Assembly: GCF_055900595.2 (NCBI RefSeq)
Contig: NZ_CM148325.1
Strand: one strand, 5' to 3'
Length of the DNA: 64,000 bases
Under the pieces are notes generated by a model. It made no database searches, had not been told where the DNA came from, and worked only from the letters and a program-made list of their open reading frames with translations. Position 1 is the first letter of the stretch. The number at the start of each line of letters is the position of its first letter. Below are positions 673 to 22,743 of this stretch, piece by piece. The position numbers and the translations under genes were made by a program.

Positions 673-1449
673 ATGCTGACACCGGCACAGGCTCATTTCC
701 AGCACGTGATGGCTTTACGGGCAGGAACGGCAGCAGAAAACGAGGATATCGTGGCCCGCACGGCTCATGAGCAGGTCCTTCACCGTCTGCGCCTGGCACA
801 GCAACGCATAAAGGGCGTCCAGGCAAAAGCGGCAAAGGCCGCGCTCAAGCGTGAAATGCTGCCGGGTTTTGCAGGCTGGATAGACGGCACGCTGGAAGCC
901 GACGGCGGACAGCAGGATGAGGTGATAGCCACACTCATGGTGTGGGCCGTGGACTGTGGCGACCTGGCGCTTGCACTGCGCATCGGGGATTATGTGGTTC
1001 GCCACAACCTCACGATGCCTGACAACTTCGGGCGTACGGCAGCCACGGTACTGACCGAGGAAATCTGCAACCCTGTTCTGACACAGGCCGGAACGGATGC
1101 ACACGCCGATTTGTCCGGCTACATCGAACCGCTGGACACCCTCTGGCAAATTGTCGCGAACCGGGACATGCCCGATGAGGTCCGCGCCAAGCTGTGCAAG
1201 GCATGCGCCTTTGCCCGTCGTGGCCTGACCGATGCCGACAGCATGGCGGTGAGTCTGAAGCTGTTCCGTGAGGCAATGCACCTTAACCCGAATGCGGGGG
1301 TAAAACGTGAGATTGCCACGCTTTCACGGGCCCTGAAAAAGGCCGGACAGGATGAAGCCGCTGCCGCACAGGAGCCTGCGGCACAGAAAGATACAACCAG
1401 AGAACAGACCACGACGCCGAAGGCGAAAGCGAAGGCGAAACGTGGTTAA
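673..1449 (+). CDS. Phage terminase endonuclease (small) subunit, P2 gpM-like
   Basis: 258-aa ORF; size and position between capsid and head-completion genes match P2 gpM (about 247 aa). Confidence 0.65.
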   Translation: MLTPAQAHFQHVMALRAGTAAENEDIVARTAHEQVLHRLRLAQQRIKGVQAKAAKAALKREMLPGFAGWIDGTLEADGGQQDEVIATLMVWAVDCGDLALALRIGDYVVRHNLTMPDNFGRTAATVLTEEICNPVLTQAGTDAHADLSGYIEPLDTLWQIVANRDMPDEVRAKLCKACAFARRGLTDADSMAVSLKLFREAMHLNPNAGVKREIATLSRALKKAGQDEAAAAQEPAAQKDTTREQTTTPKAKAKAKRG

Positions 1450-1550
1450 CGGCTGACCCCGTCAGAAGGCGGCGTGCCGGGCGTTCCGGTTACGGTTTTC
1501 CGTTCCCCTTACACCCGGCACCCACCGCTTTTTTTCTGAAGGAGCGATTT

Positions 1551-2045
1551 ATGAGCATGGTCGCAAGACCGGAAGCCGCCCCTGCACGGGACGATATCCC
1601 CGACACCGACGACGGCGACGCCACCATCACCGCCGGGGCATTCTGGCCGGAGATTGTGCTGCGGGAGCTGCGCCTTGCAGTACGCCTGCCGGGCCGCATC
1701 ACCTCCACACGTCTGGCGCACGTTGCCACGGGAGCCGTGGCTCACGTCACGCGGGAGCTGGAAGAGTGGCAGAAGGCGCAGTCTGCCGCAGGGTTCAGCA
1801 TCCTCGCAGAAGTGCCTGCCGCCACCATCAACGGTGAGAGCGTCAACGTATGGCATTACCGCAACGCCGTCTACAGCGCCACCCGCGCCCTGATTCTGGA
1901 ACGCTGGCGGGATGTGGACACCACTGATAAAGGGGACCGCCGGGCTGACGCACTGGATGAGCAGATGGAAGACTTATGGCGCGATGTGCGCTGGTCCGTG
2001 GCAGATATTCTGGGTCGCCCCCGTCTTTTTGCGGAGCTGGTGTGA
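1551..2045 (+). CDS. Head completion/stabilisation protein, P2 gpL-like
   Basis: 164-aa ORF (P2 gpL about 169 aa); stop overlaps start of the next gene (ATGA at 2043-2047). Confidence 0.65.
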   Translation: MSMVARPEAAPARDDIPDTDDGDATITAGAFWPEIVLRELRLAVRLPGRITSTRLAHVATGAVAHVTRELEEWQKAQSAAGFSILAEVPAATINGESVNVWHYRNAVYSATRALILERWRDVDTTDKGDRRADALDEQMEDLWRDVRWSVADILGRPRLFAELV

Positions 2046-2242
2046 TGAAAGTGAGGGCACTCCAGGGGGATACCGTCGATTTACTCTGTTTCCGGCACTA
2101 CGGCACCACGCAGGGGGTGACCGCACAGGTACTTGATGCCAATCCAGGGCTCTGCCGCCAGGTAATTCTGGAAGCGGGACAGGAGGTGGAGATGCCGGAG
2201 CCGGAAAGGAAACAGCAACGCGAAAAGGTAAAGCTATGGTGA
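2045..2242 (+). CDS. Small tail protein, P2 gpX-like
   Basis: Internal ATG at 2045 of the 1976..2242 ORF gives a 65-aa product starting MKVRALQGDTVD, resembling P2 gpX (about 67 aa). Confidence 0.6.
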   Translation: MKVRALQGDTVDLLCFRHYGTTQGVTAQVLDANPGLCRQVILEAGQEVEMPEPERKQQREKVKLW

Positions 2243-2526
2243 CGGGATTTTTTCAGCGCGTCAGTGACTGGATCACCTTCTGGGCGTCAGTGACGGCAAC
2301 AACCATTGGTGTTATGACCATCAGCGAAAAAATTGCGCTGGCCGGGCTGCTTCTGGGGTCACTTTCCGCCATCCATGCCTGGTGCCACCGCAGGCGTACG
2401 GAGCAGGCAATGAAGCGCCGCAATGACCTTATCGCCCGCATCCTGGCACGTTCAGAAAACCGCGAGCTTCACGACGGTGAGAGACGGGCACTGGACAGCG
2501 TGAGACAGGACGGAGAAGAGCGGTGA
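2236..2526 (+). CDS. Holin (two predicted transmembrane segments, basic C-terminus)
   Basis: 96-aa ORF with hydrophobic stretches followed by a charged tail; directly upstream of the endolysin. Confidence 0.55.
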   Translation: MVTGFFQRVSDWITFWASVTATTIGVMTISEKIALAGLLLGSLSAIHAWCHRRRTEQAMKRRNDLIARILARSENRELHDGERRALDSVRQDGEER

Positions 2527-3068
2527 AACTGCCGGTAAAACGTTATGCGGTGGCGGCCATTGTGGCGCTGGGCGTCTCCATGGCACCCGGTGAACTGAGA
2601 ACCTCACGGGAAGCACAGATAAAAATCGCCACCCGGGAAGAGTGCCGGGCGACACCGTACCGTGATATTGCAGGAGTAATGACCGTGGGATGTGGTTCAA
2701 CAGGGGGCGTGGAGAACCGGGTTTACGGAGAAAAGGAGGTGGCCCGCCGCTGGGTGAATGACCTGCGGCACGCGGAAAACTGTATCAACCAGAACTTCAG
2801 CGGTGCCGCCATGCCCCAGTCCGCCTTTGAGGCGATGACCGACGCGGCGTTCAACGTCGGCTGTACCGGCCTGATGTGGTACCGGGACAGGAGCGGCAAC
2901 CGGCAGCGCACCACCATCTGGAAGCACGCACAGGCGCACCGCTGGGTGGCGATGTGCGGGAGACTGACCGATTTTGTCAACAGTGGCGGACGCCGCTCAC
3001 AGGGGCTGGTTAACCGCCGGGAGGAGTTCAGACAGTGGTGTCTTCGCGACACGGGAGGCAGCACATGA
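2523..3068 (+). CDS. SAR (signal-anchor-release) endolysin, T4-lysozyme-like (GH24)
   Basis: N-terminal weakly hydrophobic Ala/Gly/Val-rich segment (AVAAIVALGVSMAPG), then an E-x8-D-x5-T spacing (EECRATPYRDIAGVMT); resembles the phage 21 R / P1 Lyz class. Confidence 0.7.
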   Translation: MKLPVKRYAVAAIVALGVSMAPGELRTSREAQIKIATREECRATPYRDIAGVMTVGCGSTGGVENRVYGEKEVARRWVNDLRHAENCINQNFSGAAMPQSAFEAMTDAAFNVGCTGLMWYRDRSGNRQRTTIWKHAQAHRWVAMCGRLTDFVNSGGRRSQGLVNRREEFRQWCLRDTGGST

Positions 3069-3472
3069 GACCGGTTTACGCCGTGATTGTTGCCCTCATG
3101 GTGACCACCCTGACGGCGGCGGCCATGTGGCAGTCATACCGGCTGGGGCGTGCCGGTGAGGCACGTGACGCCGCAGAGCAGCAGCTGGGCGAATACAGCC
3201 GGGCGCTGCGTGAGTCCTCCGCCGTTATCAGCGATGCCTCCGCCGTACTGCATGAGGTGATGACGCAGCGACAGAAAAGGGCACAGGAAGGAGAAGTCAG
3301 ACGTGAACAGCTTCGCGAAATTGCTGCGACGGATGAGTGCGCCGGCACTCTTCCTGACCACCGTTTTACTGACCGGCTGCGCGAACACACGGAACGCGCC
3401 ACTGCCCGCGCCCTCCTTCCGGTTCATTCCGGCGGGACTGACGACGGGAACACGGCCCCCGCCCTTCCCTGA
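3065..3472 (+). CDS. i-spanin (Rz / LysB-like)
   Basis: ATG at 3065 overlaps the endolysin stop; N-terminal TM segment followed by a charged, coiled-coil-like periplasmic domain. Confidence 0.55.
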   Translation: MRPVYAVIVALMVTTLTAAAMWQSYRLGRAGEARDAAEQQLGEYSRALRESSAVISDASAVLHEVMTQRQKRAQEGEVRREQLREIAATDECAGTLPDHRFTDRLREHTERATARALLPVHSGGTDDGNTAPALP

Positions 3473-3617
3473 ACACCCCACCTGGGGAAATATCGGGATA
3501 TGGAGCGACAGCCTCCTGGATGCACTGGAAACCTGCAACGCAGACAAACGGGCCATTGAGGCGATGGAGCGCCGGAGACTCAACCGACAGAACGGAGAGG
3601 CGCATGCTGAAAAGTAA
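3303..3617 (+). CDS. o-spanin lipoprotein (Rz1 / LysC-like), overlapping the i-spanin out of frame
   Basis: Lipobox LLTGC after a signal-like segment, proline-rich mature region; starts inside the Rz-like gene in another frame and runs past its stop. Confidence 0.5.
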   Translation: MNSFAKLLRRMSAPALFLTTVLLTGCANTRNAPLPAPSFRFIPAGLTTGTRPPPFPEHPTWGNIGIWSDSLLDALETCNADKRAIEAMERRRLNRQNGEAHAEK

Positions 3618-4068
3618 ATCCCTGAGCACACACATGAGTACAGCGTGCCGGTGGTGCAGGGCCAACCCGGAAAAGTTCACCGTGTTCATTGAACGTGGCG
3701 GGATAGAGACCACCGGCGAGACGCCGACGTTCGTGTACAACTACCGGCTGGTGATGTTCGTGATGGACTACACGGGCGATCTGGACAACCTGACGCTTCC
3801 ACTGATTGTCTGGCTGGCAGAGAACCAGCCGCAGTTGCTGCTTAATCCTGAGCGCAACAACGATATTCAGTTCACGGCGGCCATTAACGACGACGACAGC
3901 GCGGACGTGCTGTTTGAGCTGCCGTTACGTGAACGCGTGCGCGTCACCCGCAGGGATGACGGCACCCTCATGACAGAACATCTACCGGAGCCGAAATCAC
4001 GCATCCCGCAGGACGGCGACTGGTCACACATTCTGGAGGATGTGACGTGGAACATTGTCACCGGATAA
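3604..4068 (+). CDS. Tail completion protein, P2 gpR-like
   Basis: ATG at 3604 gives 154 aa (P2 gpR about 155 aa); position after the lysis cassette matches P2. Confidence 0.6.
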   Translation: MLKSKSLSTHMSTACRWCRANPEKFTVFIERGGIETTGETPTFVYNYRLVMFVMDYTGDLDNLTLPLIVWLAENQPQLLLNPERNNDIQFTAAINDDDSADVLFELPLRERVRVTRRDDGTLMTEHLPEPKSRIPQDGDWSHILEDVTWNIVTG

Positions 4069-4083
4069 CACGCGGAGAATGTT

Positions 4084-4740
4084 ATGGGGAAACTGAGATA
4101 CCGTAACCTCGTTCCCGCTGAAGGAATGAGTAACATGTTTGTCAATATCCGGCTGGCAACCAGCCCGCAGGCAGTGAAGCGCATTGCCGCGCATGTGGGT
4201 AAGGAGCTGCGGCGCGTGAACCAGAGCCGGATGCGCGCCCAGAAAGCGCCGGACGGTTCGGTGTGGACACGCCGTAAACGCCGTATATCACGCCTTCAGG
4301 AGCGCATCAGCTTTATCTGGCAAAACCAGAACCGCACCCTGAAAAACTGGCATCACGGTTCAGGAAAATACGGCCAGACCATCACCGGCTGGGATGAAGA
4401 CCGGAGCGGCATACGTACCTTTTACCGGAGTGATATCCTCCGTTTCCTTGAAATCAGGACACGCCGCATCAACCGTGACACCACAAAAACGGTGCCGATG
4501 TTTGCGAAGCTGCGCACGGCCCGTTATCTGAAAGTGAAGGCGGACGCATCAGGCGTGACGGTGGGCTACAGCGGCGTGGCGGCACGCATTGCCCGCGTTC
4601 ACCAGTTCGGGGAGCGCGACCGGGTGGCCGCAGGGATGTATACGGATTATCCGGCCCGTGAACTTCTTGGAATAACACCGGCAGATGAACGACTTATTCA
4701 GCGTATCATTATGGACAATATCGCGAGGGCTGTGGCATGA
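4084..4740 (+). CDS. Tail completion / virion morphogenesis protein, P2 gpS-like (longer than P2 gpS)
   Basis: 218-aa ORF between R-like and V-like genes; start codon uncertain. Confidence 0.55.
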   Translation: MGKLRYRNLVPAEGMSNMFVNIRLATSPQAVKRIAAHVGKELRRVNQSRMRAQKAPDGSVWTRRKRRISRLQERISFIWQNQNRTLKNWHHGSGKYGQTITGWDEDRSGIRTFYRSDILRFLEIRTRRINRDTTKTVPMFAKLRTARYLKVKADASGVTVGYSGVAARIARVHQFGERDRVAAGMYTDYPARELLGITPADERLIQRIIMDNIARAVA

Positions 4741-5318
4741 ACGCGGAATTAATGCGCCTTATCAGCAACATCATCAGAACCGGCGTGATTTTCGACGTGA
4801 ACCCGCAGACCTGGGAGGTCCGGGTGCGCAGTGGCGGACTGGAGACAGGCTGGCTTCGCTGGAGCACCGCGCGGGCGGGCGCGTTCAGTGTCTGGGTGCC
4901 GCCAGCCACCGGTGAACAGGTGGCGTTCGTCTGTATCGGTGGTAATCCCGAAACCGCGATAATCATCGGCAGCCTCTGGAGCGATGATATCCCGGCACCG
5001 GGCAGCACACTGAAGGAAATCATCATGACAGCACCGGACGGTGCGGTATTCCGCTACGATGCAGACGCCGGTGCACTGGAGGTTAAGGGGATTAAAACAG
5101 CCAGCATTCAGGCCGACACGCGCATCACCCTGGACACGTCGGAGGTGGTGTGTACCCGCAAACTTATCACCGCCACCCTGGAGGTGCAGAACGGCGGCGA
5201 GATGCGCGGCAGCATATCCCACAGCGGCGGCAGCCTGACATCCAACGGTATCACCGTTCATACGCACACCCACGGTGGCGTCAGGACGGGCCCGGGCACC
5301 ACGGGAGGCCCGCAATGA
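4737..5318 (+). CDS. Baseplate assembly / spike protein, P2 gpV-like
   Basis: 193-aa ORF with Gly-rich C-terminus (HTHTHGGVRTGPGTTGGPQ); overlaps neighbours by 4 nt on each side. Confidence 0.7.
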   Translation: MNAELMRLISNIIRTGVIFDVNPQTWEVRVRSGGLETGWLRWSTARAGAFSVWVPPATGEQVAFVCIGGNPETAIIIGSLWSDDIPAPGSTLKEIIMTAPDGAVFRYDADAGALEVKGIKTASIQADTRITLDTSEVVCTRKLITATLEVQNGGEMRGSISHSGGSLTSNGITVHTHTHGGVRTGPGTTGGPQ

Positions 5319-7124: not shown

Positions 7125-9359
7125 ATGAGCACGAGAAAATTCAGAACCCTTATCACCGACATCGGGCTGGCAAAGCTGGCCGCAACAACGGCGCCTGGCG
7201 GTAGACCTGTACGCCTTACGCACATGGCTGTAGGGGACGGCAATGGAGAGCTTCGTCAGCCGCAGAAAAACCAGACATCGCTTTACAATGAGGTTTGGCG
7301 CCAGTCTGTCAACCGCGTCTTCACCGACCCGGAGAACCCGAACCGCCTCATCGCCGAACTGGTCATTCCTCCTGAAACCGGCGGATTCTGGGTGCGTGAA
7401 ATTGGTGTGTTTGATGATACAGGTACAATGATTGCAGTAGGAAATACCGCTGAAAGTTACAAGCCCACCAGAGAGGAAGGTTCAGGGCGGGCGCAGATAT
7501 TCCGTGCAGTAATCACCGTCACCTCCGACGCCGTGGTGGAACTGGTCATGGACACAACAACAATTCTGCCGACCACGGACTACATTGATGAGAAAATGGC
7601 GGAACACGCACGTTCCCGTAACCACCCTGACGCGACACTGACAGAAAAAGGATTCACCCAACTGAGCAGCGCCACAAACAGCACCTCTGAAACACTGGCC
7701 GCCACACCGAAGGCCGTCAAGGCTGCATATGACCTTGCAGCCGGTAAAGCACCCGCCAGCCACACCCACCCGTGGAATCAGATAACTGGTGTGCCATCAG
7801 CCTCGCTGACGGCAAAAGGCACCGTACAGCTGAGCAGTGCCACAAACAGTGAGTCAGAGACTGAGGCGGCCACCCCCAAAGCGGTTAAAGCCTTACACGA
7901 TATGGTGACGAGCAAGTATACAGGACAGGATGCAACCACCGGACGCAAAGGCATCGTACAGCTGAGCAGCGCCACAAACAGCAATTCCGAAACACTGGCG
8001 GCCACACCGAAGGCAGTAAGTGATGCACTGAGCATGGCGTTCGTGAAGCCAACAACATCCCTGGGGGAAACAGACCTGAACACTCTGGGGCGTAAGGAAG
8101 ACGCGGGAGATTATTACCAGCAGAGTGACTCAGGTGCGAGAACAGACAGAAACTATCCTGTAGAGAAGGCAGGAGAGTTACGCATCCGTGTTGGTGCATG
8201 GGGATTCTGCCAGCATGAATACACGAGCTGGGATCCGCCACGAAAATTTATCAGGACAGTTACCGGAAACTTTAACGGTAACGGCCCATGGTCAGAGTGG
8301 GTGGAGGTGACAAACACAGATGCAACAACTGGACGCAAAGGCATCGTACAGCTGAGCAGCGATACAAACAGCAATTCCGAAACGCTGGCGGCCACACCAA
8401 GAGCCGTCAAGGCTGCATATGACCTTGCAGCCGGTAAAGCACCCGCCAGCCACACCCACCCGTGGAATCAGATAACAGGTGTGCCATCAGCCTCGCTGAC
8501 GGCAAAAGGCACCGTACAGCTGAGCAGTGCCACAAACAGTGAGTCAGAGACTGAGGCCGCCACCCCCAAAGCGGTTAAAGCCTTACACGATATGCTGACG
8601 AGCAAGTATACAGGACAGGATGCAACCACCGGACGCAAAGGCATCGTACAGCTAAGCAGCGCCACAAACAGCAATTCCGAAACGCTGGCGGCCACACCAA
8701 AAGCTGTTAAAGCTGCGTATGACCTTGCCAACAGCAAAGCCTCGGCAGCCCACACTCATCGCTGGGCTCAGATCACAGACGCCCCTGTTTTTTCGTCTGT
8801 TGCCCGCGTCATCATGGGTAAACAAAGCATAAAAGATATTCTTGATTACTTTGGTTTAGGAGAAGGCTCGACGCTGCCAGTTGGCGTACCCGTTCCGTGG
8901 CCTTCGTCAAGACCACCTGAGGGGTGGTTACAGTGCAACGGTGCCGCATTCACGCGTACAAAATACCCAAAACTGGCGGTGGCCTACCCTGACCTCAGGC
9001 TACCAGATTTGCGCGGGGAATTTATTCGTGGATGGGATGACCTGCGAATGATTGACAGGGGACGCTTATTGTTATCCACACAGGAAGCAACATATATTTG
9101 TACCGCCATACAGGCGTACCACGGCGTAGCGGGAGGTGCAGATATTCAGGCAGGGATTTCATTTGCATCACATGATAACGACATCATAAACATAACCCCT
9201 GATCAACCCAGAACCGGTAACGGCATCCTGTACGGCACAAAACCAGTTGACAGATGGGCAATAGCCAGAGCCGGTAAGCTGGTGAGTAATGAAAAAGACA
9301 GATGGATAGCGATCAGACCGCGCAATATCGCTTTTAATTATATTGTGAGGGCAGTTTAA
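7125..9359 (+). CDS. Tail fibre protein, P2 gpH-like, with internal repeat modules and a collar-like C-terminal domain
   Basis: 744 aa; conserved gpH-type N-terminus (MSTRKFRTLITDIGLAKLAATTAPGG...); repeated GIVQLSSATNS...ATPKAVKA motifs; C-terminus ends NIAFNYIVRAV. Confidence 0.75.
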   Translation: MSTRKFRTLITDIGLAKLAATTAPGGRPVRLTHMAVGDGNGELRQPQKNQTSLYNEVWRQSVNRVFTDPENPNRLIAELVIPPETGGFWVREIGVFDDTGTMIAVGNTAESYKPTREEGSGRAQIFRAVITVTSDAVVELVMDTTTILPTTDYIDEKMAEHARSRNHPDATLTEKGFTQLSSATNSTSETLAATPKAVKAAYDLAAGKAPASHTHPWNQITGVPSASLTAKGTVQLSSATNSESETEAATPKAVKALHDMVTSKYTGQDATTGRKGIVQLSSATNSNSETLAATPKAVSDALSMAFVKPTTSLGETDLNTLGRKEDAGDYYQQSDSGARTDRNYPVEKAGELRIRVGAWGFCQHEYTSWDPPRKFIRTVTGNFNGNGPWSEWVEVTNTDATTGRKGIVQLSSDTNSNSETLAATPRAVKAAYDLAAGKAPASHTHPWNQITGVPSASLTAKGTVQLSSATNSESETEAATPKAVKALHDMLTSKYTGQDATTGRKGIVQLSSATNSNSETLAATPKAVKAAYDLANSKASAAHTHRWAQITDAPVFSSVARVIMGKQSIKDILDYFGLGEGSTLPVGVPVPWPSSRPPEGWLQCNGAAFTRTKYPKLAVAYPDLRLPDLRGEFIRGWDDLRMIDRGRLLLSTQEATYICTAIQAYHGVAGGADIQAGISFASHDNDIINITPDQPRTGNGILYGTKPVDRWAIARAGKLVSNEKDRWIAIRPRNIAFNYIVRAV
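7705..8010. repeat. Direct repeat copy A inside the tail fibre gene (about 300 bp, near-identical to 8395-8700)
   Basis: Read by eye: the stretch gccgtcaaggctgcatatgaccttgcagccggtaaagcacccgccagccacacccacccgtggaatcagataac... recurs almost exactly. Confidence 0.6.
8395..8700. repeat. Direct repeat copy B inside the tail fibre gene
   Basis: Near-identical to 7705-8010; shorter partial copies of the GIVQLSSATNS module occur at about 7925 and 8630. Confidence 0.6.
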
Positions 9360-10540: not shown

Positions 10541-13500
10541 CTAATCTCTGTCACGGAAACTACCGACTGTCTGGCGGATACGGCGTTCCATTTCCGCACG
10601 GACGGCATCACCCACCATTTTTGCCAGTTCGCGCGGGTTTTGCGTGTGAACATCATGCAGGTGAATATGCAGTTCGCCAGTTAATCCCCATGGTGCCGGC
10701 TCACTCTGGCGCGGTCGGGGCGATGCGGGGGATATGGGCTGGCGCACAGCCTCAACCACCGGACGGGATGTTGCCGCCATCACTGGTGTCATTAGCGGGG
10801 AGAACGTCGGCATGACATCGTGAGTCATAACCGGTTTGATCACCGGCGGAACCACTGGCGTAATATTACCGGACAGTACCGGACGGACGACCGGAGGAAT
10901 AACCGGCACATTATTCACGGACACCACCGGCTTCACGACCGGCGACACGTTCGCCGTGGTGGATATCAGCGGCGAAACACTGACAGGCGGTGGCGCTGGC
11001 AGCGGTGGCAACGAAGGCACACTGACCGACGGCACCTGCGGCAGTCTGACAGGTGGCTCACTGACACTACCCGGTAACAGGGAAGCTGCTCGGTTAAAGC
11101 GTTCCTCCTTCCACTCACCACGAACGGCCAGCGCTTCCGGCAGGTTTTTAAAGATAATATCGCCGGGACCAGCGCGTTTTTTCGCCTGTTTCGCCTCATC
11201 CAGCAGACCACCGGTGTTATCGACGATTTTGTTCAGGCGGCGCATAGTGCCGGTATTCTCCCCCGTCAGGGGTGGTTGCCCCCCTTTGGGTTTTTCGCCG
11301 TCTTTTTTATCCTCGTCCTTTTTCGGCGGATTAATGACGTTAACATCCGCCAGAAGCATGGCAGCTTTCTCGTTCAGCAACTCCTTCTGTTTTAGTTCTT
11401 CCGCCTTTTTCCGGGCGCGCTCAACCGCCGACGGAATCAGCCCGAGTTTTTCCAGCACCCGGGTTAATGAGTCAATCAGCAGCGTAACCGGACCGGTCAC
11501 CAGATTGCTGATAAACTCCCCGACCTTCTGCCCGAACGTACGCCCGGCTTCCGTGCACTTGTCCAGCTCATCCTTTGTTGTGCTTACCGGCGCGAACAAA
11601 TCCACGAACCACTGCCACACACGCCCGATTGTCTGCCCGACATACTCAAACAGCGGTCCCAGTGGTGCCACAGCCTCGCGCAGTGGCGTAAGCCCCTGCC
11701 ACAGGCCGGACAAGAACCCGCCCACGACAGCCTTCAGCTGGTCCCAGTGCCGCCAGATAAGCACTGCCGCACCGACCAGTGTCGCCACCACAAGGCCCAC
11801 CGGACTTAACAGAAAACCCAGCGCCCCGCCAAGTGCGCCCACCGCACCACTCACCATCCCCCACAGTGCGGGCAGACCTGACAGTCTGAGCGCCAGTATT
11901 CCGATACCGCGCCCCAGTGAAATCAGTGCGCCGCCAGGTGAAGTGAACGCAGCCAGCAGACCACCACGCAGCGCGCCAAGTCCCGCCTGCACACCACGAA
12001 GCCGCCCCGCAACTACGCCCAGCAGTGCAGCAAACCGTCCGGCACCGGAGGTGATACCGACAAACAGCACGCGCCAGCCACCGATACCGCCCAGCGGACC
12101 ACCGAGTACGCCGCGCAGCTGCGTCAGTAACGGCAGCGCACGACCGAGGCCGGATGTGCCGGTCAGCAGGGCAAACCCAAGACGCAGTTTTGCCAGCGGC
12201 CCCATCAACACACCAGTGGCAAGTGACAGCGCCCCCATGGCCGCAACCGCAGCCAGCAGTACACCACCGGCAATCAGCAGTTGTTTTGTCAGTTCAGGGT
12301 GCGCCTGAGCCAGCGCGGTGACTTTCGCAATAACCCGGGTGAACGACTGCGTGACAGAACGCAGCGGCCCGTCAACGAGGTCAGCGACACGGATACGCAG
12401 TCCTTCCCATGCGCTGTTCAGTGATTTCAGGTCACCGTCCAGGTTATCAGCCATAACACGGGCAGTGTGATTAAGTTCCCCGGTGGCCAGTTCAATCTCC
12501 TGCGTAAGACGGGGAAGATTATTTTCCCCCGCCGCAGTGACAAGATTCATCAGGGAAACATAGGACTCCTGCCCGGCAATAGCCCTGAAAAAGGAGACCT
12601 GCGCGGCATTACCGTATTTTCGGGTGGCCTGGTACAGCTCATTCAGGATATTTTCCATCCGGCGCATGTTCCCGTAAGCATCCTGCGTCTCCACGCCAAG
12701 CTCTTTCAGTGCCATTGCAGCGGCCTTCGGCGGATCAACCAGACGTGACAGACTGGCACGCAGCGCCGTACCTGCATCACTTCCACGGATCCCCACACTG
12801 CCAAGGACACCCGTCATGGCTGCCGCCTGTTCAAGGGACAGGCCAAGTGAAGCTGCAACCGGACCCGTGTACTTCATGGTTTCACCCAGCGAACGGAGAT
12901 CCGTATTGGTTCGTGTGAAGGTGGCGGCCAGCGTGTCACCCACGCGATCCATCTGGTCAGCGGACAGACCAAACTGTGTGAGGATATTCGAACTGATATC
13001 GGCAGTCTGTCCCAGGTCCATCCCTGCAGCCATTGCCAGATCAAGCACGCCGGGTAGCGCCGCCTGTATGGCCTGTGGTGTGAAGCCGGCCATGGCAAGG
13101 AACGCCTGACCGCTGGCAGCATCACCGGCGGTAAACTGCGTTTCAGAGCCCAGCTTAATGGCCTGTTCGCGCAGCGCCTTAAACTGCGGACTGTTTTTGT
13201 CAATACGGGTCAGCGCCTGGACGCGCGACATCTCCTTACCAAAACTGACCGCCGGTTGCAGGAAACGTCCGGCCGCATAGCCGCCTGCCGCCGCCGTACC
13301 AACCGCCGTAAGTCCGACCGTTTTAAGTTTTCCCGCCGTCTCCTGAGCACGGGAATATTGCTGGCGTGCCTGCGTGACACGTGCCAGCGCCTGCCGTTCG
13401 CGTTCCAGCTGGTCGTTGTATTGCTGTGTTCGCCGTATGGCCTGTTGAATGGTGTTGTCACTGCCGGAAAGCGCAATACCGTGGCGCCGCAGCTCACCAC

Positions 13501-13888
13501 CCAGTTCGCGCATTCGCTGAACTTCACGCGCACGGACCTCATTGAGACGCTCAAGTTTGAGGCTCAAATCGTTCATCAGCTTTTTCTGTTTGTCAGACAG
13601 CACGGTTCCGGCGCGCTGAATTTGCTGAAGTGCGCTTAACTGGCGTTGCGCCCTGACAATGCCGTTTCCGGCCTTGTTTGCAGCCTCGCGGGCGCGATCA
13701 AATGAACGGGCGTGGCGTTCCAGGTTTTTGATCGCACCCTGCGTTCTCTGTATGGAGTCGCCAAGCTGGCCCATCATGCGACGGGCGTTTTCGGTGGGAC
13801 GGGTCAGCCTGTCAACAGCGCTGAAGGCGACCCGTATATCAAGCGTTTTCATGCTCTGCGTTCCCGCTGCGAAGGGCCGCCCGCTCAC
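10541..13888 (-). CDS. Tail tape measure protein, P2 gpT-like
   Basis: 1115-aa ORF; coiled-coil N-terminal region, Gly/Ala-rich hydrophobic centre, Pro/Val-rich C-terminal part; track start is GTG at 13888, an in-frame ATG also lies at 13852. Confidence 0.8.
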   Translation of the reverse strand: MSGRPFAAGTQSMKTLDIRVAFSAVDRLTRPTENARRMMGQLGDSIQRTQGAIKNLERHARSFDRAREAANKAGNGIVRAQRQLSALQQIQRAGTVLSDKQKKLMNDLSLKLERLNEVRAREVQRMRELGGELRRHGIALSGSDNTIQQAIRRTQQYNDQLERERQALARVTQARQQYSRAQETAGKLKTVGLTAVGTAAAGGYAAGRFLQPAVSFGKEMSRVQALTRIDKNSPQFKALREQAIKLGSETQFTAGDAASGQAFLAMAGFTPQAIQAALPGVLDLAMAAGMDLGQTADISSNILTQFGLSADQMDRVGDTLAATFTRTNTDLRSLGETMKYTGPVAASLGLSLEQAAAMTGVLGSVGIRGSDAGTALRASLSRLVDPPKAAAMALKELGVETQDAYGNMRRMENILNELYQATRKYGNAAQVSFFRAIAGQESYVSLMNLVTAAGENNLPRLTQEIELATGELNHTARVMADNLDGDLKSLNSAWEGLRIRVADLVDGPLRSVTQSFTRVIAKVTALAQAHPELTKQLLIAGGVLLAAVAAMGALSLATGVLMGPLAKLRLGFALLTGTSGLGRALPLLTQLRGVLGGPLGGIGGWRVLFVGITSGAGRFAALLGVVAGRLRGVQAGLGALRGGLLAAFTSPGGALISLGRGIGILALRLSGLPALWGMVSGAVGALGGALGFLLSPVGLVVATLVGAAVLIWRHWDQLKAVVGGFLSGLWQGLTPLREAVAPLGPLFEYVGQTIGRVWQWFVDLFAPVSTTKDELDKCTEAGRTFGQKVGEFISNLVTGPVTLLIDSLTRVLEKLGLIPSAVERARKKAEELKQKELLNEKAAMLLADVNVINPPKKDEDKKDGEKPKGGQPPLTGENTGTMRRLNKIVDNTGGLLDEAKQAKKRAGPGDIIFKNLPEALAVRGEWKEERFNRAASLLPGSVSEPPVRLPQVPSVSVPSLPPLPAPPPVSVSPLISTTANVSPVVKPVVSVNNVPVIPPVVRPVLSGNITPVVPPVIKPVMTHDVMPTFSPLMTPVMAATSRPVVEAVRQPISPASPRPRQSEPAPWGLTGELHIHLHDVHTQNPRELAKMVGDAVRAEMERRIRQTVGSFRDRD

Positions 13889-17420: not shown

Positions 17421-17672
17421 ATGTTCCGTTGTCCCCTATGCGGTGCATCCGCACGTATCCGCACCAGTCGCAATGAAAATGATTCAGGCACAGTTCGCCT
17501 GAAGTACTACCAGTGCAATAACCTCGAATGCGGGATCGGCTTTACCACACTGGAGGGTTTTAACAAATTCACATCAAAACGCGCCCCGTCGCCGCAGGGT
17601 ACAGAGCGGATACCGTGGGAAGATTTTCCGGGATCTCACAGGGGGAATACTCAGATTAATCTTGATATTTAA
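17421..17672 (+). CDS. ogr: Ogr/Delta-family zinc-finger late transcription activator
   Basis: 83 aa; N-terminus MFRCPLCGASARIRTSR...YYQCNNLEC carries the four-Cys Ogr signature; last gene of the P2-type late region. Confidence 0.7.
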   Translation: MFRCPLCGASARIRTSRNENDSGTVRLKYYQCNNLECGIGFTTLEGFNKFTSKRAPSPQGTERIPWEDFPGSHRGNTQINLDI

Positions 17673-17790
17673 GAACAATAATCAGGTTGAGAGGACATCA
17701 TAAGGCAAGTAGATTAACGGCAGATACTTTCCCGCAACCACGGGCAAGTATTTAATTATCCATGATGAAATATGACCTAAATTGTTTTTT

Positions 17791-17816
17791 GCCCGCCGGA
17801 AAGCGGGCATTTTTTT
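17791..17816 (+). terminator. Intrinsic terminator (GC hairpin plus T7), first of a recurring family in the array
   Basis: gcccgccggaaagcgggc then attttttt; T-run only on the plus-strand side. Confidence 0.55.
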
Positions 17817-18030
17817 ATTCTTTTGTGGTTATGGGGTCATCAGGAACCACGTGCAGATTATATTTTTGTTTTTTTGGCGTTCCTCCGGCAGCAACGAGTT
17901 CATCAATAAGACACTGACACGCCTGAACATCCCGGGCATGTCTTAGTTTCACCTTTATTGATTTAACCTTATCCTCACCGGAGGAGAAATGCAGTTCAAT
18001 CTCAATATCGTTTCTTCGGAACAATCTCAT
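17815..18030 (-). CDS. Hypothetical small protein (71 aa) encoded in the 450-bp repeat unit; only this copy is full length
   Basis: MRLFRRNDIEIELHFSSGEDKVKS...; copy at about 19.2 kb differs by two synonymous and one non-synonymous change in the first 7 codons and is truncated to about 35 codons; third copy degenerate. Confidence 0.35.
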   Translation of the reverse strand: MRLFRRNDIEIELHFSSGEDKVKSIKVKLRHARDVQACQCLIDELVAAGGTPKKQKYNLHVVPDDPITTKE

Positions 18031-18254
18031 ACGCCCCCTGAATATATCAGAAATACTAGTATCGAAAAATGAGAAAACAGTTAGACAGGAGAAACATATT
18101 AACACAAATCATTTATACCTATAGATGAAATTATAATTTCATTCATGAATATGATAGATAACTATATTGTGAACAAAATGAAAAATGGCTAAATTAAAAA
18201 TGGGCATGGAGGAATGCCCGGTTATCAATATAATGTGACGTAGATCATTGTTTT

Positions 18255-18281
18255 GCCCGCCGGAGAGCGGGCATTTTTTTT
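18255..18281 (+). terminator. Intrinsic terminator (repeat family)
   Basis: gcccgccggagagcgggc followed by a T8 run. Confidence 0.5.
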
Positions 18282-18465
18282 GCGCCTGCCATCGAGGCGC
18301 CTTCCCTGGCGCACACAAAGCAGCCCTGATTTTCCATGAAAACTTCAGGGTTGAGCTGCGGGCACAAAGTGAGTAGATTAGCTACGGGTACCTCCCCCTG
18401 ACAACAGGAAGGGTGTCCATTATCCATGATATACAAACGAAAAGTCTTGTTTTTTGCCCGCCGAA

Positions 18466-18491
18466 GCGCGGGCATTTTTTTATGCATCAGA
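18466..18491 (+). terminator. Intrinsic terminator (repeat family), immediately upstream of the hok-like locus
   Basis: gcccgccgaagcgcgggc followed by a T7 run. Confidence 0.5.
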
Positions 18492-18607
18492 CAAGATACA
18501 GCCCACCCCAACTGACACCTGAAATATTGCCGCAACAAAAAGAAACAGTTAAATTACGCGCGGGTGCCTTTCGGCTGATGGCCGGAGGGAAAACCTGAAG
18601 GCCGGAT

Positions 18608-18841
18608 GTGGAAAGGCCCCGGAAAACATTTCTGTTTAACCGAGGCCCTAACCGCATTACCTTGACAAGTGAAAGGTTAGCGCCTCTCCGGAAAAGGAGC
18701 AAGTGCTATGTCGCAAAAATCGCTTACGGCCATCACGTTCTGCGTGACGGCAATCCTCATCATCTGGATATTGCACGGTTCGCTGTGCGAAATACGGATG
18801 AGCTTCTGGGGAGCGGAGTTTGCGGCGTTCTTACAATGTAA
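18608..18841 (+). CDS. mok-like overlapping reading frame of the hok-like locus
   Basis: 77-codon frame starting at GTG 100 nt upstream of the hok-like ATG and covering it in another frame, as in hok/mok/sok modules. Confidence 0.4.
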   Translation: MERPRKTFLFNRGPNRITLTSERLAPLRKRSKCYVAKIAYGHHVLRDGNPHHLDIARFAVRNTDELLGSGVCGVLTM

Positions 18842-18848
18842 GAAGTAA
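18708..18848 (+). CDS. Hok-family type I toxin (46 aa), apparently intact
   Basis: ATG at 18708 preceded by aaggag with 8-nt spacing; MSQKSLTAITFCVTAILIIWILHGSLCEIRMSFWGAEFAAFLQCKK has a single TM helix, the Hok SLCEIR motif and the E(F/V)AAF motif; too short for the ORF track. Confidence 0.6.
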   Translation: MSQKSLTAITFCVTAILIIWILHGSLCEIRMSFWGAEFAAFLQCKK

Positions 18849-18947
18849 GGAAACCGCGACGGGGGAGCAATCCCCCGTCAATCGGTTGCCAGGGTAAGGT
18901 CGATAAGGCACCCTATCTCACAGACATGAACAACAAACCCGCAGCAT

Positions 18948-18979
18948 AAAAACTGCGGGTTTTCTTTTTGGTGTCCTCA
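18948..18979 (+). terminator. Intrinsic terminator downstream of the hok-like gene
   Basis: cccgcag cataaaaa ctgcggg followed by tttctttttgg. Confidence 0.5.
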
Positions 18980-20612: not shown

Positions 20613-20795
20613 GTGGAAAGGCCCCGGAAAACATCTGTGTTTAACCGAGGCCTGACCCTTCCTACCGTGACAAGTGGAAGGTTAGCGCCTCTTTGTAAAA
20701 GGAGCAAGCGCTATACCGCAAAAAACGATTATTGTTGGCATTTTATGCCTGACAATAACCCTGGTCATCTGGATGGTCCACGATTCGTTATGTGA
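20613..20795 (+). CDS. mok-like frame of the second (decayed) hok-like locus
   Basis: 60-codon frame from GTG, homologous to 18608..18841. Confidence 0.3.
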   Translation: MERPRKTSVFNRGLTLPTVTSGRLAPLCKRSKRYTAKNDYCWHFMPDNNPGHLDGPRFVM

Positions 20796-20853
20796 ATTCA
20801 GCTTTGATATCTGAGGAGCGCGTTTTGCGGCGTTCTTGCAGTGTAAACCGTAA
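20713..20853 (+). pseudogene. Decayed hok-like toxin gene (start codon lost, in-frame nonsense codon)
   Basis: Alignment to copy 1 by eye: ATG is ATA at 20713-20715 and TGG is TGA at 20812-20814; remaining frame IPQKTIIVGILCLTITLVIWMVHDSLCEFSFDI* still shows the Hok core. Confidence 0.5.
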
Positions 20854-21003
20854 GAAACCGCAGCGGGGGAGAAATTCCCCGCTATCCGGTTGTTGGGGTG
20901 GGCCGATATGGCGCCCTTTCCCTGTAGAGACAAAACAAAAAACCAGATTTGCCCGCCATTGAGAGGGCTTTTTTGTCACCCTCACCAGTGAGGGCATCAT
21001 CAT

Positions 21004-21429: not shown

Positions 21430-22743
<1,314 letters not shown>

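What the first reader, a model, noticed from the sequence alone, without database searches (positions are those of the whole stretch)
2236..3617. Lysis cassette with a SAR endolysin and overlapped spanins in a P2-type backbone
The endolysin (2523..3068) has an N-terminal weakly hydrophobic Ala/Gly/Val-rich segment and a T4-lysozyme-like E-x8-D-x5-T spacing, features of signal-anchor-release endolysins (phage 21 R, P1 Lyz) rather than a cytoplasmic P2 K-type enzyme. The holin is a small two-TM protein, as expected for a pinholin partner. The Rz1-like lipoprotein gene (3303..3617, lipobox LLTGC) starts inside the Rz-like gene in another frame and extends 145 nt beyond it into the R-like gene. 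No lysA-like antiholin gene is present between endolysin and spanins.
Basis: partly seen in the sequence, partly recalled or inferred. Interest (0 to 1): 0.4.

Follow-up and report, generated by a model that had tools for sequence, protein, structure and literature searches.

The report
Prophage lysis cassette with membrane-anchored endolysin
A P2-like prophage of E. coli carries an ordinary four-gene cell-bursting cassette whose wall-degrading enzyme is a membrane-tethered relative of the phage P1 lysozyme, with its regulatory cysteines rearranged.

Summary
Window 2236-3617 holds four tightly overlapping genes between P2-type X and R. They are a 96-aa two-TMD holin, a 181-aa GH24 lysozyme (GTG 2523) with a basic/hydrophobic N-terminus and E39-x8-D48-x5-T54, a type-II i-spanin (3065-3472), and a +1-frame lipoprotein o-spanin (3303-3617, LTGC).

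There is no lysA. Holin, endolysin and i-spanin show no similarity to P2 Y, K or LysB.

It is not unusual. P2's own lysC also runs 145 nt past lysB into R. The P2-like phage HP1 has a P1-type SAR endolysin. The same cassette sits in sequenced Peduoviridae (phiT5282H, ST16-OXA48phi5.4, 3LV2017).

The closest solved relative is P1 Lyz (45% identity; model matches active 1XJT, TM 0.87), not phage 21 R.

The N-terminal extension is real. It is under purifying selection and relatives start with ATG there, so RefSeq's M20 start and its truncated lysC are annotation errors.

One mildly new point concerns the cysteines. This subclade lacks P1's SAR-domain Cys and catalytic Cys (Y8, D48), keeps C41 and gains C57. 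That combination appears to recur independently in the wider family, suggesting a C41-C57 pair and activation without thiol isomerisation.

SAR release and pinholin function remain inferred.

The parts
2045..2242 (+). P2 gpX-like tail gene; left backbone flank of the cassette. Its stop overlaps the holin start (ATGgTGA).
   Evidence: Pfam Phage_tail_X E=1.7e-20. 48% identity to P2 X.
2236..2526 (+). Class II holin, 96 aa, candidate pinholin. N-in/C-in topology. TMD1 is residues 12-30 (2269-2325), TMD2 is residues 33-51 (2332-2388), and the C-terminal tail is highly charged.
   Evidence: phrog_1350 holin E=7e-23. Weak Pfam HP1-holin hit, E=8e-4, below cut-off. Two charge-free runs. Family alignment A2 has invariant G25, M27, T28, A34, G37, G41 and R52, a SEK loop and GxxxG in TMD2. 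No similarity to P2 Y.
2523..3068 (+). GH24 (T4-type) lysozyme, 181 aa; P1-Lyz-family SAR endolysin candidate. The GTG start overlaps the holin stop (GTGA), with GGAG 7 nt upstream.
   Evidence: Pfam PF00959 E=1.4e-21. PDB 1XJT P1 Lyz E=6.9e-36. AF2 pLDDT 93.4, best fold match active P1 Lyz at TM 0.87. Start supported by homologues and pN/pS.
2523..2591 (+). N-terminal signal-anchor (SAR-like) segment, codons 1-23: basic MKLPVKR, then YAVAAIVALGVSMAPG.
   Evidence: Charge-free run of 16 aa, against 24 in P1 Lyz and R21 and a family range of 14-27. Pairwise identity within the subclade is 76.5% for residues 8-23 against 70.7% for 61-176. Predicted helix at residues 10-20 with block pLDDT 86-96. 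RefSeq omits this segment.
2637..2693 (+). Catalytic hairpin: E39 (2637-2639), C41 (2643-2645), D48 (2664-2666), T54 (2682-2684), C57 (2691-2693).
   Evidence: E39, C41 and T54 are invariant in A1. Positions 8, 48 and 57 split the family cleanly: Y/D/C in 16 sequences, C/C/(I,M,L) in 30.
3065..3472 (+). i-spanin (Rz/LysB-like), 135 aa, with an N-terminal TMD at residues 3-25 (3071-3139). Its ATG overlaps the endolysin stop (ATGA).
   Evidence: phrog_214 Rz-like spanin E=1.9e-25. Charge-free run 3-25. Homologues carry Pfam DUF2570. TIGR03495 LysB only E=0.003, below cut-off.
3303..3617 (+). o-spanin (Rz1/LysC-like) lipoprotein, 104 aa precursor. Signal is codons 1-25, lipobox L-T-G-C with Cys26 at 3378-3380, +2 Ala, 79-aa Pro-rich mature part. 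It lies in the +1 frame inside the i-spanin gene, extends 145 nt beyond it and runs 14 nt into R.
   Evidence: Pfam LysC PF23793, 49.3 bits against cut-off 27. phrog_456 and phrog_3001. A lipobox ORF is conserved in the same frame in L002-L004. AAGGAG lies 9 nt upstream of the GTG.
3604..4068 (+). P2 gpR-like tail completion gene; right backbone flank.
   Evidence: Pfam P2_Phage_GpR E=6e-38, with the model starting at this ATG. 35% identity to P2 R.

Best explanation
This is the lysis module of an intact-looking P2-like (Peduoviridae) prophage of E. coli. It sits in the late operon between tail genes X and R.

Proposed mechanism, all steps inferred:
1. The four genes are translated from one late transcript, with overlapping stop and start codons.
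2. The endolysin is exported by Sec. It stays tethered to the inner membrane by its short, weakly hydrophobic N-terminal signal anchor (K2, K6 and R7 inside; Y8-G23 in the bilayer), with the muramidase domain in the periplasm and inactive.
3. The two-TMD holin accumulates and, at a set time, depolarises the membrane, probably through small holes.
4. The anchor then leaves the bilayer and packs onto the catalytic domain as a helix, as in active P1 Lyz. This gives an active E39/D48/T54 lysozyme.
5. This subclade has neither the SAR-domain cysteine nor the catalytic cysteine of P1 Lyz. Activation therefore cannot use P1's thiol-disulfide isomerisation and is presumably purely conformational, as in phage 21 R. 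The conserved C41 is presumably paired with the newly acquired C57.
6. After the wall is cut, the i-spanin/o-spanin complex (inner-membrane protein plus outer-membrane lipoprotein) disrupts the outer membrane.

Shown here: gene structure, homology, conservation, fold prediction and cysteine covariation.

Inferred: export, tethering, release, hole size, the disulfide and spanin action.
For: Context:
- Gene order and family hits.
- 100% identity to prophages in 22 RefSeq E. coli chromosomes.
- Backbone genes L, X, R and S are 35-48% identical to P2, while the cassette genes are unrelated to P2's.

Endolysin homology and fold:
- P1 Lyz 1XJT E=6.9e-36, 45% identity, with the alignment reaching into the N-terminal segment.
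- AF2 model pLDDT 93.4 with a helix at residues 10-20. Its best match is full-length active P1 Lyz (TM 0.87, rmsd 2.0 A). Inactive 1XJU scores TM 0.60 and R21 scores 0.67.

The N-terminal segment is translated and constrained:
- pN/pS of 0.37-0.38, similar to 0.26-0.31 for the rest of the gene, with ATG starts in relatives.
- It is at least as conserved as the catalytic domain within the subclade, 76.5% against 70.7%.
- Pro22 is nearly invariant directly after the only AXA-like site, S19-M20-A21. A +1 proline blocks signal peptidase I (established knowledge, Barkocy-Gallagher & Bassford 1992).

Cysteine pattern:
- Y8/D48/C57 in 16 sequences against C8/C48/(I,M,L)57 in 30, with no mixed states.
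- In 48 cluster representatives with E39, C41 and a SAR-like N-terminus, C57 occurs only where the SAR domain has no Cys: 4 of 7 against 0 of 41, Fisher p=1.8e-4.
- This state sits at three separate places in a crude tree.

Holin and spanins:
- Holin features.
- o-spanin lipobox ORF conserved in three phages.
- Same cassette and context in divergent relatives.

The definition of SAR features and the definitive test are given in PMC9239132.
Against: - No dedicated TM, signal-peptide or lipoprotein predictor could be run.
- The charge-free N-terminal run is only 16 residues. A simple Hessa-scale sum for the best 19-mer is +7.3 kcal/mol, against about +0.5 to +0.8 for P1 Lyz and R21. The segment looks as much like a Sec signal-peptide h-region as like a membrane anchor.
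- With the SAR cysteine lost, the argument that the N-terminus must stay attached no longer applies directly to this subclade.
- 'Pinholin' has no sequence-level support. P1 itself pairs a SAR endolysin with a non-pinholin holin system.
- The C41-C57 disulfide could not be checked because no model coordinates were available.
- The covariation test is not corrected for phylogeny, and the tree is a crude p-distance NJ.
- No experiment exists for any member of this cassette type, as far as I could find.
Confidence: 0.75

Rival explanations
1. The N-terminus is an ordinary cleavable Sec signal peptide. The endolysin would be secreted as a soluble periplasmic enzyme, like Lys44 of Oenococcus phage fOg44, and kept in check by the energised membrane or some other means rather than by tethering.
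For: The hydrophobic core is short: a 16-residue charge-free run, with a 19-mer Hessa sum of +7.3. The layout is a classical n-region (MKLPVKR), h-region and a small-residue stretch (ALG, VSMA, APG) that offers -3/-1-type sites. This subclade has lost the SAR cysteine that forces retention in P1-type enzymes. Secreted endolysins are a known class (PMC6116005).
Against: The best AXA-like site is followed by a nearly invariant Pro22. The other candidate sites are not conserved across the family. The segment is as conserved as the catalytic domain, unlike typical signal peptides. AlphaFold builds it confidently into the fold, as in full-length active P1 Lyz. Sister sequences with nearly the same segment carry the P1-type Cys, which must stay attached. 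Run lengths of 14-18 are common among the Cys-bearing SAR domains of the family.
Confidence: 0.1
2. The holin is a canonical large-hole holin rather than a pinholin. The SAR endolysin would be released by depolarisation all the same, as in phage P1.
For: There is no sequence similarity to S21 68-type pinholins. The only family hits are the generic phrog_1350 'holin' and a sub-threshold HP1-holin Pfam match. P1 uses a SAR endolysin with the LydA/LydB holin system (PMC9025707). The 46-residue charged C-terminal tail is much longer than that of S21 68.
Against: There are two TMDs with N-in/C-in topology. TMD1 is 53% Gly/Ala/Ser/Thr, like the SAR-type TMD1 of S21 68. TMD2 carries a conserved A34/G37/G41 small-residue face. 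Most phages with SAR endolysins encode pinholins (PMC9239132).
Confidence: 0.3
3. The RefSeq gene models are right. The lysozyme would start at Met20 (ATG 2580) and be a soluble cytoplasmic endolysin, and lysC would be the 63-codon ORF from 3426 without a lipoprotein signal.
For: PGAP annotates it this way in identical prophages.
Against: Codons 2-23 are under purifying selection, and relatives have ATG at the homologous upstream position. GGAG lies 7 nt before GTG 2523, while nothing comparable precedes ATG 2580. The P1 Lyz alignment and the model include the segment. The RefSeq lysC start is an ATT codon, whereas the upstream lipobox is conserved in three phages. Misplaced starts and missed o-spanins are a documented annotation problem (PMC6139136).
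Confidence: 0.03
4. The cassette is a decaying remnant in a defective prophage and no longer functions.
For: One otherwise identical prophage (TUM1886) has a tape-measure pseudogene. No matching phage isolate exists in the phage collection at the DNA level.
Against: All four ORFs are intact, with coupled starts and good Shine-Dalgarno sites. They show purifying selection. They are identical in 22 genomes. The tape-measure ORF is intact in this window.
Confidence: 0.05

Closest known systems
Phage P1 endolysin Lyz (PDB 1XJT active form, 1XJU inactive form), the prototype SAR endolysin
   Same: Homologous over almost the full length: 45% identity, E=6.9e-36, including part of the N-terminal anchor. 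Same fold as the active form (TM 0.87). Shares the GH24 triad spacing, the equivalent of C44 (C41), and four further conserved Cys (C87, C114, C145, C173).
   Different: Lacks the SAR-domain thiol (Y8 in place of P1 C13) and the catalytic Cys (D48 in place of C51), and gains C57 (P1 I60). The P1 disulfide-isomerisation switch is therefore impossible. The anchor is 16 charge-free residues rather than 24. P1 lyz is not part of a holin-endolysin-spanin cassette.
Phage 21 R / DLP12 RrrD (PDB 3HDE, 3HDF, 4ZPU), a SAR endolysin regulated by refolding of the SAR domain, with pinholin S21 68
   Same: E-x8-D-x5-T triad with Asp. No Cys in the SAR domain. Basic residues at positions 6-7. Gene order holin-endolysin-spanins, with a two-TMD holin whose TMD1 is weakly hydrophobic.
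   Different: Only distant sequence similarity (E=1.2e-4, about 24% identity, TM 0.67). The holin is unrelated. Phage 21 spanins are embedded, not overlapped (from established knowledge).
Lysis cassettes of Enterobacter phage phiT5282H (Novemvirus), Klebsiella phages ST16-OXA48phi5.4 (Reipivirus) and 3LV2017 (Reginaelenavirus), and the 'P1/P2-like' cassette of Klebsiella phage KP12 (PMC9902359)
   Same: Same position (L-X-holin-endolysin-Rz/Rz1-R-S) and homologous proteins: holin 52%, endolysin 69%, Rz 29%, Rz1 39% identity to phiT5282H. No lysA. o-spanin overlapped in the +1 frame.
   Different: Those endolysins keep the P1-type cysteine set (C8, C41, C48), whereas the window has Y8, C41, D48 and C57. 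None has been studied experimentally beyond protein purification.
Phage P2 lysis cassette Y-K-lysA-lysB-lysC
   Same: Same location in the late operon between X and R. Same overlapped spanin architecture, with lysC running 145 nt beyond lysB into R. The o-spanin belongs to Pfam LysC.
   Different: Holin, endolysin and i-spanin have no detectable similarity to Y, K and LysB. The o-spanin is only marginally similar to LysC (25% identity, E=0.044). lysA is absent.
Haemophilus phage HP1 hol/lys (Peduoviridae)
   Same: A P2-like phage with a P1-Lyz-type SAR endolysin (40% identity to the window enzyme) preceded by a small holin and followed by an Rz-like gene.
   Different: The HP1 cassette lies after the tail sheath and tube genes. 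HP1 Lys keeps the P1 cysteine set. The HP1 holin shows no BLASTP similarity to the window holin.

Membership tests
GH24 / T4-type phage lysozyme (Pfam PF00959) | Profile match above the curated cut-off, and the Glu-8x-Asp/Cys-5x-Thr catalytic triad | tested here: met
   77.6 bits against cut-off 22.3. E39, D48 and T54 read from the sequence. E39 and T54 are invariant in 46 homologues.
SAR (signal-anchor-release) endolysin | N-terminal, charge-free, weakly hydrophobic stretch rich in Gly/Ala/Ser/Thr, preceded by a short basic cytoplasmic segment | tested here: met
   MKLPVKR followed by 16 charge-free residues, 8 of 16 being Ala/Gly/Ser. This is shorter than P1 and R21 (24) but inside the family range of 14-27. 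The criterion is as described for Mu gp22 in PMC9239132.
SAR (signal-anchor-release) endolysin | The N-terminal segment is not removed by signal peptidase and becomes part of the mature enzyme | tested here: inconclusive
   Indirect evidence only: the conserved Pro22 after the SMA site, conservation equal to that of the catalytic domain, and confident packing in the AF2 model matching full-length active P1 Lyz. No SignalP run or processing data.
SAR (signal-anchor-release) endolysin | Sec-dependent export, membrane tethering, and release on depolarisation or by a pinholin (the definitive test) | not testable with these tools
   This needs expression, fractionation and triggering experiments (PMC9239132).
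P1 Lyz regulatory subclass (disulfide isomerisation) | Free thiol in the SAR domain (P1 C13) | tested here: not met
   Y8 occupies the aligned position, and there is no Cys in residues 1-40.
P1 Lyz regulatory subclass (disulfide isomerisation) | Catalytic Cys (P1 C51) caged by C44 | tested here: not met
   D48 replaces the catalytic Cys. Only the C44 equivalent (C41) is kept.
Phage 21 R-type regulatory subclass (conformational) | Asp-type triad with no Cys in the SAR domain | tested here: met
Phage 21 R-type regulatory subclass (conformational) | Close sequence kinship with R21, and activation by SAR-domain refolding that repositions the catalytic Glu | tested here: inconclusive
   Kinship is weak (E=1.2e-4, TM 0.67). 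Refolding cannot be tested here, and the model shows only the packed state.
Pinholin (S21 68 type) | Two TMDs in N-in/C-in topology, TMD1 weakly hydrophobic (able to leave the membrane), TMD2 with a small-residue face | tested here: met
   Charge-free runs at 12-30 (10 of 19 Gly/Ala/Ser/Thr) and 33-51. SEK loop, and HRRR after TMD2. A34, G37 and G41 are invariant. Hydropathy only.
Pinholin (S21 68 type) | Forms nanometre-scale holes that depolarise the membrane but do not pass a folded endolysin | not testable with these tools
   A functional assay is required.
Two-component spanin, overlapped architecture (P2 LysB/LysC type) | i-spanin with a single N-terminal TMD and a periplasmic domain | tested here: met
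   Charge-free run at residues 3-25 and a charged remainder. phrog_214 E=1.9e-25.
Two-component spanin, overlapped architecture (P2 LysB/LysC type) | o-spanin with a lipoprotein signal and a lipobox [LVI][ASTVI][GAS]C | tested here: met
   L-T-G-C26, preceded by K6, R9, R10 and a hydrophobic core. +2 Ala. Conserved in L002-L004. Consensus taken from PMC6139136. LipoP was not run.
Two-component spanin, overlapped architecture (P2 LysB/LysC type) | The o-spanin gene starts inside the i-spanin gene in another frame and extends beyond its stop | tested here: met
   3303 lies within 3065-3472 in the +1 frame. There is a 170-nt overlap and a 145-nt extension, and P2 has the same 145-nt extension.
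Two-component spanin, overlapped architecture (P2 LysB/LysC type) | Sequence-family membership with P2 LysB and LysC | tested here: inconclusive
   o-spanin: Pfam LysC at 49.3 bits against cut-off 27 (met). i-spanin: TIGR03495 LysB at 17.8 bits against cut-off 92.75, and no BLASTP similarity (not met).
Canonical P2 lysis cassette (Y, K, lysA) | Homologues of holin Y, endolysin K and the lysA gene | tested here: not met
   No BLASTP hits to Y or K. There is no ORF between the endolysin and the i-spanin.

The most novel reading that the evidence does not exclude
The window enzyme may represent an undescribed regulatory subtype of P1-Lyz-family SAR endolysins.

In this subtype the SAR-domain thiol is lost, the catalytic residue is Asp, and the invariant C41 is satisfied by a new partner, C57, at the base of the catalytic beta-hairpin. 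Activation would then depend only on release and refolding of an unusually short anchor.

The same swap (no SAR Cys, plus C57) seems to have arisen at least three times in the wider family. That would make it a convergent solution and a natural experiment on how disulfide-switch regulation is gained and lost.
Probability: 0.35. Interest if true: 0.4.

Novelty: new member of a known kind. Interest (0 to 1): 0.27.

Why it matters
Mostly as a clean-up. The finding shows that a widespread E. coli prophage lysis module is a standard SAR-endolysin, holin and overlapped-spanin cassette. It also shows that RefSeq models hide both export signals: the lysozyme is started at Met20 and lysC is started at an ATT codon after the lipobox. 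That would mislead any automated survey of lysis strategies.

The cysteine rearrangement (Y8/D48/C57 against C8/C48/I57) gives lysis biologists closely related enzyme pairs, 66-69% identical. One member has the P1 disulfide switch and the other does not. This is a convenient system for asking what the switch adds to lysis timing. It does not open a new field.

Tried and rejected
- Megablast of the region against the phage collection found nothing. Only protein-level relatives exist.
- NCBIfam gave no family-level hit for the holin or o-spanin, and only sub-threshold hits for the other two.
- Rfam at gathering threshold on window 1-22000 found nothing.
- The promoter and terminator scan of 1400-4900 gave counts at chance level, with no analogue of the P2 lysC attenuator.
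- I considered a dual-start antiholin as in S21 or lambda S. It was rejected because ATG 2236 is the first start codon after an in-frame stop and there is no second Met near it.
- I considered a Mu-type releasin, because K6 and R7 resemble the Mu gp22 K6/K7 motif. It was rejected as a specific claim because R21 has R6/K7 too, and the 96-aa protein has two TMDs and holin-family hits rather than DUF2730.
- I tried to read Kuty 2010, Sun 2009 and Xu 2004 for the published SAR subclass definitions. None is held, so what I state about them rests on my own knowledge and on secondary citations.
- I tried to obtain model coordinates to measure the C41-C57 distance. None is exposed.
- SignalP, TMHMM, Phobius and LipoP are unavailable. 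I replaced them with charge-free-run and Hessa/Kyte-Doolittle sums, which are crude.
Full report
**What the window is**

The first ~18 kb of the window is the right part of a P2-like (Peduoviridae) prophage. The rest is core E. coli chromosome: serS, ftsK, lrp, trxB, cydDC, infA, tRNA-Ser, clpA, macB, poxB and hcp.

The 3.3-kb stretch around the finding is at least 99% identical to 22 RefSeq E. coli chromosomes. It has no near-identical match among 50,697 phage records.

The gene order is M, L (1551-2045), X (2045-2242), holin (2236-2526), endolysin (2523-3068), i-spanin (3065-3472), o-spanin (3303-3617), R (3604-4068), S.

**Observation check**

- The holin is 96 aa. It has two charge-free runs (residues 12-30 and 33-51) and a long charged tail. 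It matches phrog_1350 'holin' at E=7e-23.
- The endolysin matches Pfam Phage_lysozyme at E=1.4e-21. It reads E39-x8-D48-x5-T54, preceded by MKLPVKR-YAVAAIVALGVSMAPG.
- The Rz-like ORF opens at 3035, but its supported start is ATG 3065. That codon overlaps the endolysin stop (ATGA) and has GGGAGG upstream.
- The Rz1-like gene starts at GTG 3303 (AAGGAG 9 nt upstream) in the +1 frame of Rz. It has a K/R-rich n-region, a hydrophobic core and the lipobox L-T-G-C26 with Ala at +2.
- The Rz1-like gene also matches Pfam LysC above its cut-off (49.3 against 27 bits), runs 145 nt past the Rz stop and extends 14 nt into R.
- Nothing lies between the endolysin and Rz, so lysA is absent.

**Is the hydrophobic N-terminus really translated?**

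RefSeq starts this lysozyme at Met20 (ATG 2580), which removes the segment. Four lines of evidence say RefSeq is wrong.

1. GGAG lies 7 nt before GTG 2523, which overlaps the holin stop. No Shine-Dalgarno precedes ATG 2580.
2. Relatives at 66-77% identity all start with ATG at the homologous upstream codon.
3. Codons 2-23 show pN/pS of 0.37-0.38 at near-saturated synonymous divergence (pS 0.54-0.66). The rest of the gene shows 0.26-0.31.
4. The alignment to P1 Lyz and the structural model both include the segment.

RefSeq's lysC likewise begins at an ATT codon (3426), downstream of the lipobox. The full ORF with a lipobox is conserved in the +1 frame in three related phages. Kongari et al. (PMC6139136) describe exactly these two failure modes: unannotated overlapped o-spanins and misplaced starts that remove export signals.

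**What the endolysin is**

It is unrelated to P2 K (BLASTP E=33). Its best solved relative is the prototype SAR endolysin P1 Lyz (1XJT, E=6.9e-36, 45% identity). Phage 21 R and RrrD are distant (E about 1e-4).

An AlphaFold model built on 46 homologues is confident: pLDDT 93.4, pTM 0.90, with a helix at residues 10-20 and block pLDDT of 86-96. Its best PDB matches are:

| PDB entry | Description | TM (query) | rmsd | Aligned columns |
|---|---|---|---|---|
| 1XJT | full-length active P1 Lyz | 0.87 | 2.0 Å | 179 |
| 1XJU | inactive P1 Lyz | 0.60 | 7.4 Å | 180 |
| 3HDE | phage 21 R | 0.65-0.67 | 4.8-5.5 Å | 170-177 |

(All.) So the N-terminal segment is predicted to be an integral part of the folded, active enzyme, as in P1 Lyz.

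**How SAR-like is the anchor?**

The charge-free run is 16 residues, half of them Ala/Gly/Ser. It is 24 in P1 Lyz and R21, 18 in phiT5282H and 22 in 3LV2017. Across 98 cluster representatives of the wider family, Cys-bearing SAR domains range from about 14 to 27 residues, so 16 is low but not aberrant.

A crude Hessa-scale sum (+7.3 for the best 19-mer) says it is a poor stable TMD. That fits either a very weak anchor or a signal-peptide h-region.

Evidence against cleavage:
- The only AXA-like site (S19-M20-A21) is followed by the nearly invariant Pro22. A +1 proline blocks signal peptidase I (established knowledge).
- Other candidate sites are not conserved.
- Within the subclade, residues 8-23 are more conserved (76.5% pairwise identity) than residues 61-176 (70.7%).

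I put the cleavable-signal rival at about 0.1.

**The cysteine rearrangement**

In an alignment of 46 homologues, the family splits cleanly.

- 30 sequences carry the P1 set: C8 in the anchor, C41 and catalytic C48, with I/M/L at position 57. These include P1 Lyz and the phages phiT5282H, ST16-OXA48phi5.4 and 3LV2017.
- 16 sequences carry Y8, C41, D48 and C57. These include the window.
- There are no mixed states.
- The only fully diagnostic columns in the whole alignment are 8, 48, 57 and 121.

In P1 Lyz, C13 of the released SAR domain attacks the C44-C51 disulfide and frees the catalytic C51. This comes from my own knowledge of Xu et al. 2005. PMC3556154 supports only that the catalytic Cys is held in a disulfide until the enzyme is activated. 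The window enzyme cannot use that switch.

To see whether this was a single historical accident, I searched 1.84 billion cluster representatives (583 hits at E ≤ 0.001) and aligned 98 full-length ones. Among the 48 with E39, C41 and a SAR-like N-terminus:

| | C57 present | C57 absent |
|---|---|---|
| SAR domain has a Cys | 0 | 41 |
| SAR domain has no Cys | 4 | 3 |

Fisher p is 1.8e-4, not corrected for phylogeny.

By nearest neighbours and a crude NJ tree, the 'no SAR Cys + C57' state sits in three separate places:
- the window subclade, next to P1-type sequences;
- P0082 and P0100, inside a D48-plus-SAR-Cys clade;
- P0146, near soluble enzymes.

The simplest reading is that C57 replaces the SAR thiol as the partner of C41 in the oxidising periplasm. 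It would tie the base of the catalytic hairpin, whose strands are 41-47 and 53-56 in the model. I could not measure the distance because no coordinates are exposed, so this is an inference.

**Holin**

Twelve family members share an invariant core, IGVMTxSEKxAxAGLLxG. This is the end of TMD1, a three-residue periplasmic loop, and a small-residue face (A34, G37, G41) on TMD2, followed by HRRR. TMD1 is 53% Gly/Ala/Ser/Thr.

This is the class II, N-in/C-in layout of the phage 21 pinholin, and most SAR-endolysin phages encode pinholins (PMC9239132). But there is no sequence relationship to S21 68, and P1 shows that a SAR endolysin need not have a pinholin. I keep 'canonical holin' as a 0.3 rival on this sub-point.

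Databases often label this protein 'phage tail protein' or 'hypothetical'.

**Spanins**

The overlapped layout is that of P2 itself. P2 lysC (8202-8492) starts in lysB (7922-8347), runs 145 nt beyond it and overlaps R. P2 is the textbook 'overlapped' example (PMC6139136).

At the sequence level, the o-spanin is a Pfam LysC member but only 25% identical to P2 LysC. The i-spanin has no detectable similarity to LysB.

**Comparison with what is known**

The backbone genes L, X, R and S are 35-48% identical to P2, while all four cassette genes are effectively replaced.

The same cassette, in the same place, with homologous proteins and without lysA, is present in Enterobacter phage phiT5282H and in Klebsiella phages ST16-OXA48phi5.4 and 3LV2017. 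It is also present in more divergent E. coli prophages of the Y/D/C subclade.

The classical P2-like phage HP1 has a P1-type SAR endolysin that is 40% identical to this one. [quoted passage not shown]

So 'a SAR endolysin with overlapped spanins in a P2-type backbone' is a known arrangement.

**Verdict**

The thing itself is an ordinary member of a known kind of lysis system.

Two points have modest value. First, RefSeq models of this prophage hide both export signals. Second, the endolysin belongs to a P1-Lyz-family lineage that has swapped the P1 cysteine switch for an Asp triad plus a C41/C57 pair, apparently convergently. That hypothesis is cheap to test but not a surprise of the first order.

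Interest 0.27; novelty: new member of a known kind.

Noticed in passing
window 2523-2579 and 3303-3425 (L001 16082 and 16928 in RefSeq NZ_CP128970.1): RefSeq/PGAP models of the identical prophage start the lysozyme at Met20, dropping the hydrophobic N-terminus. They start lysC at an ATT codon downstream of the lipobox. The holin is called 'hypothetical', and elsewhere 'phage tail protein'. Both export signals are therefore invisible in the public annotation.
   Followed up: yes
window 17,700-20,900, between ogr (17421-17672) and serS (21430-22722, minus strand): A block of degenerate direct repeats with a period of roughly 2 kb. For example, 18411-18546 matches 20431-20566 at 98%, 18561-18791 matches 20566-20796 at 81%, and a 174-nt unit occurs four times. 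The block surrounds a hok/gef-type ORF (18708-18848), and the second copy looks decayed. There was no Rfam match at gathering threshold.
   Followed up: partly
window 10541-13888 (minus strand): The tail tape-measure ORF is intact here (1115 aa). It is annotated as a truncated pseudogene in the otherwise identical prophage of strain TUM1886 (L001 25159-27354).
   Followed up: partly
L011 4094-6459 and L012 2096-4459 (related E. coli prophages carrying endolysin P0008): In these relatives, extra genes sit between the spanin genes and R. L011 carries a 681-aa DUF1737(weak)/SASA/DUF6645 protein plus a DUF1378 protein. L012 has separate DUF1737 (122 aa) and DUF6645 (425 aa) genes plus DUF1378. Such genes are typical of the late region of lambdoid (Stx-type) phages (from my own knowledge). 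The window has no such insertion.
   Followed up: no
Representatives P0071, P0074, P0083, P0092, P0108 (alignment): Several members of the wider family with Asp at the catalytic position carry a C-x-x-C motif directly after the catalytic Glu (E-x-C-x-x-C). Four of the five listed also have a Cys in the SAR domain; P0074 does not. This may be another disulfide-control variant, reminiscent of but not identical to the published Lyz103 'caging' arrangement.
   Followed up: no
window ~1-21,400 compared with L007 (strain 100117, NZ_CM128596.1): Strain 100117 shares the right-hand core sequence at 100% but has dmsA directly next to serS with no prophage. The prophage plus the hok repeat block therefore occupies the dmsA-serS interval. 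The attachment site was not mapped.
   Followed up: partly
window 2592-2594 (codon 24 of the endolysin): Glu24 shortens the charge-free anchor from 18 to 16 residues. Within the 16-member subclade, position 24 is Glu in 6 (counting the window), Lys in 1 and Ala/Val/Thr in the rest. Anchor length therefore varies among close relatives and might tune lysis timing.
   Followed up: partly
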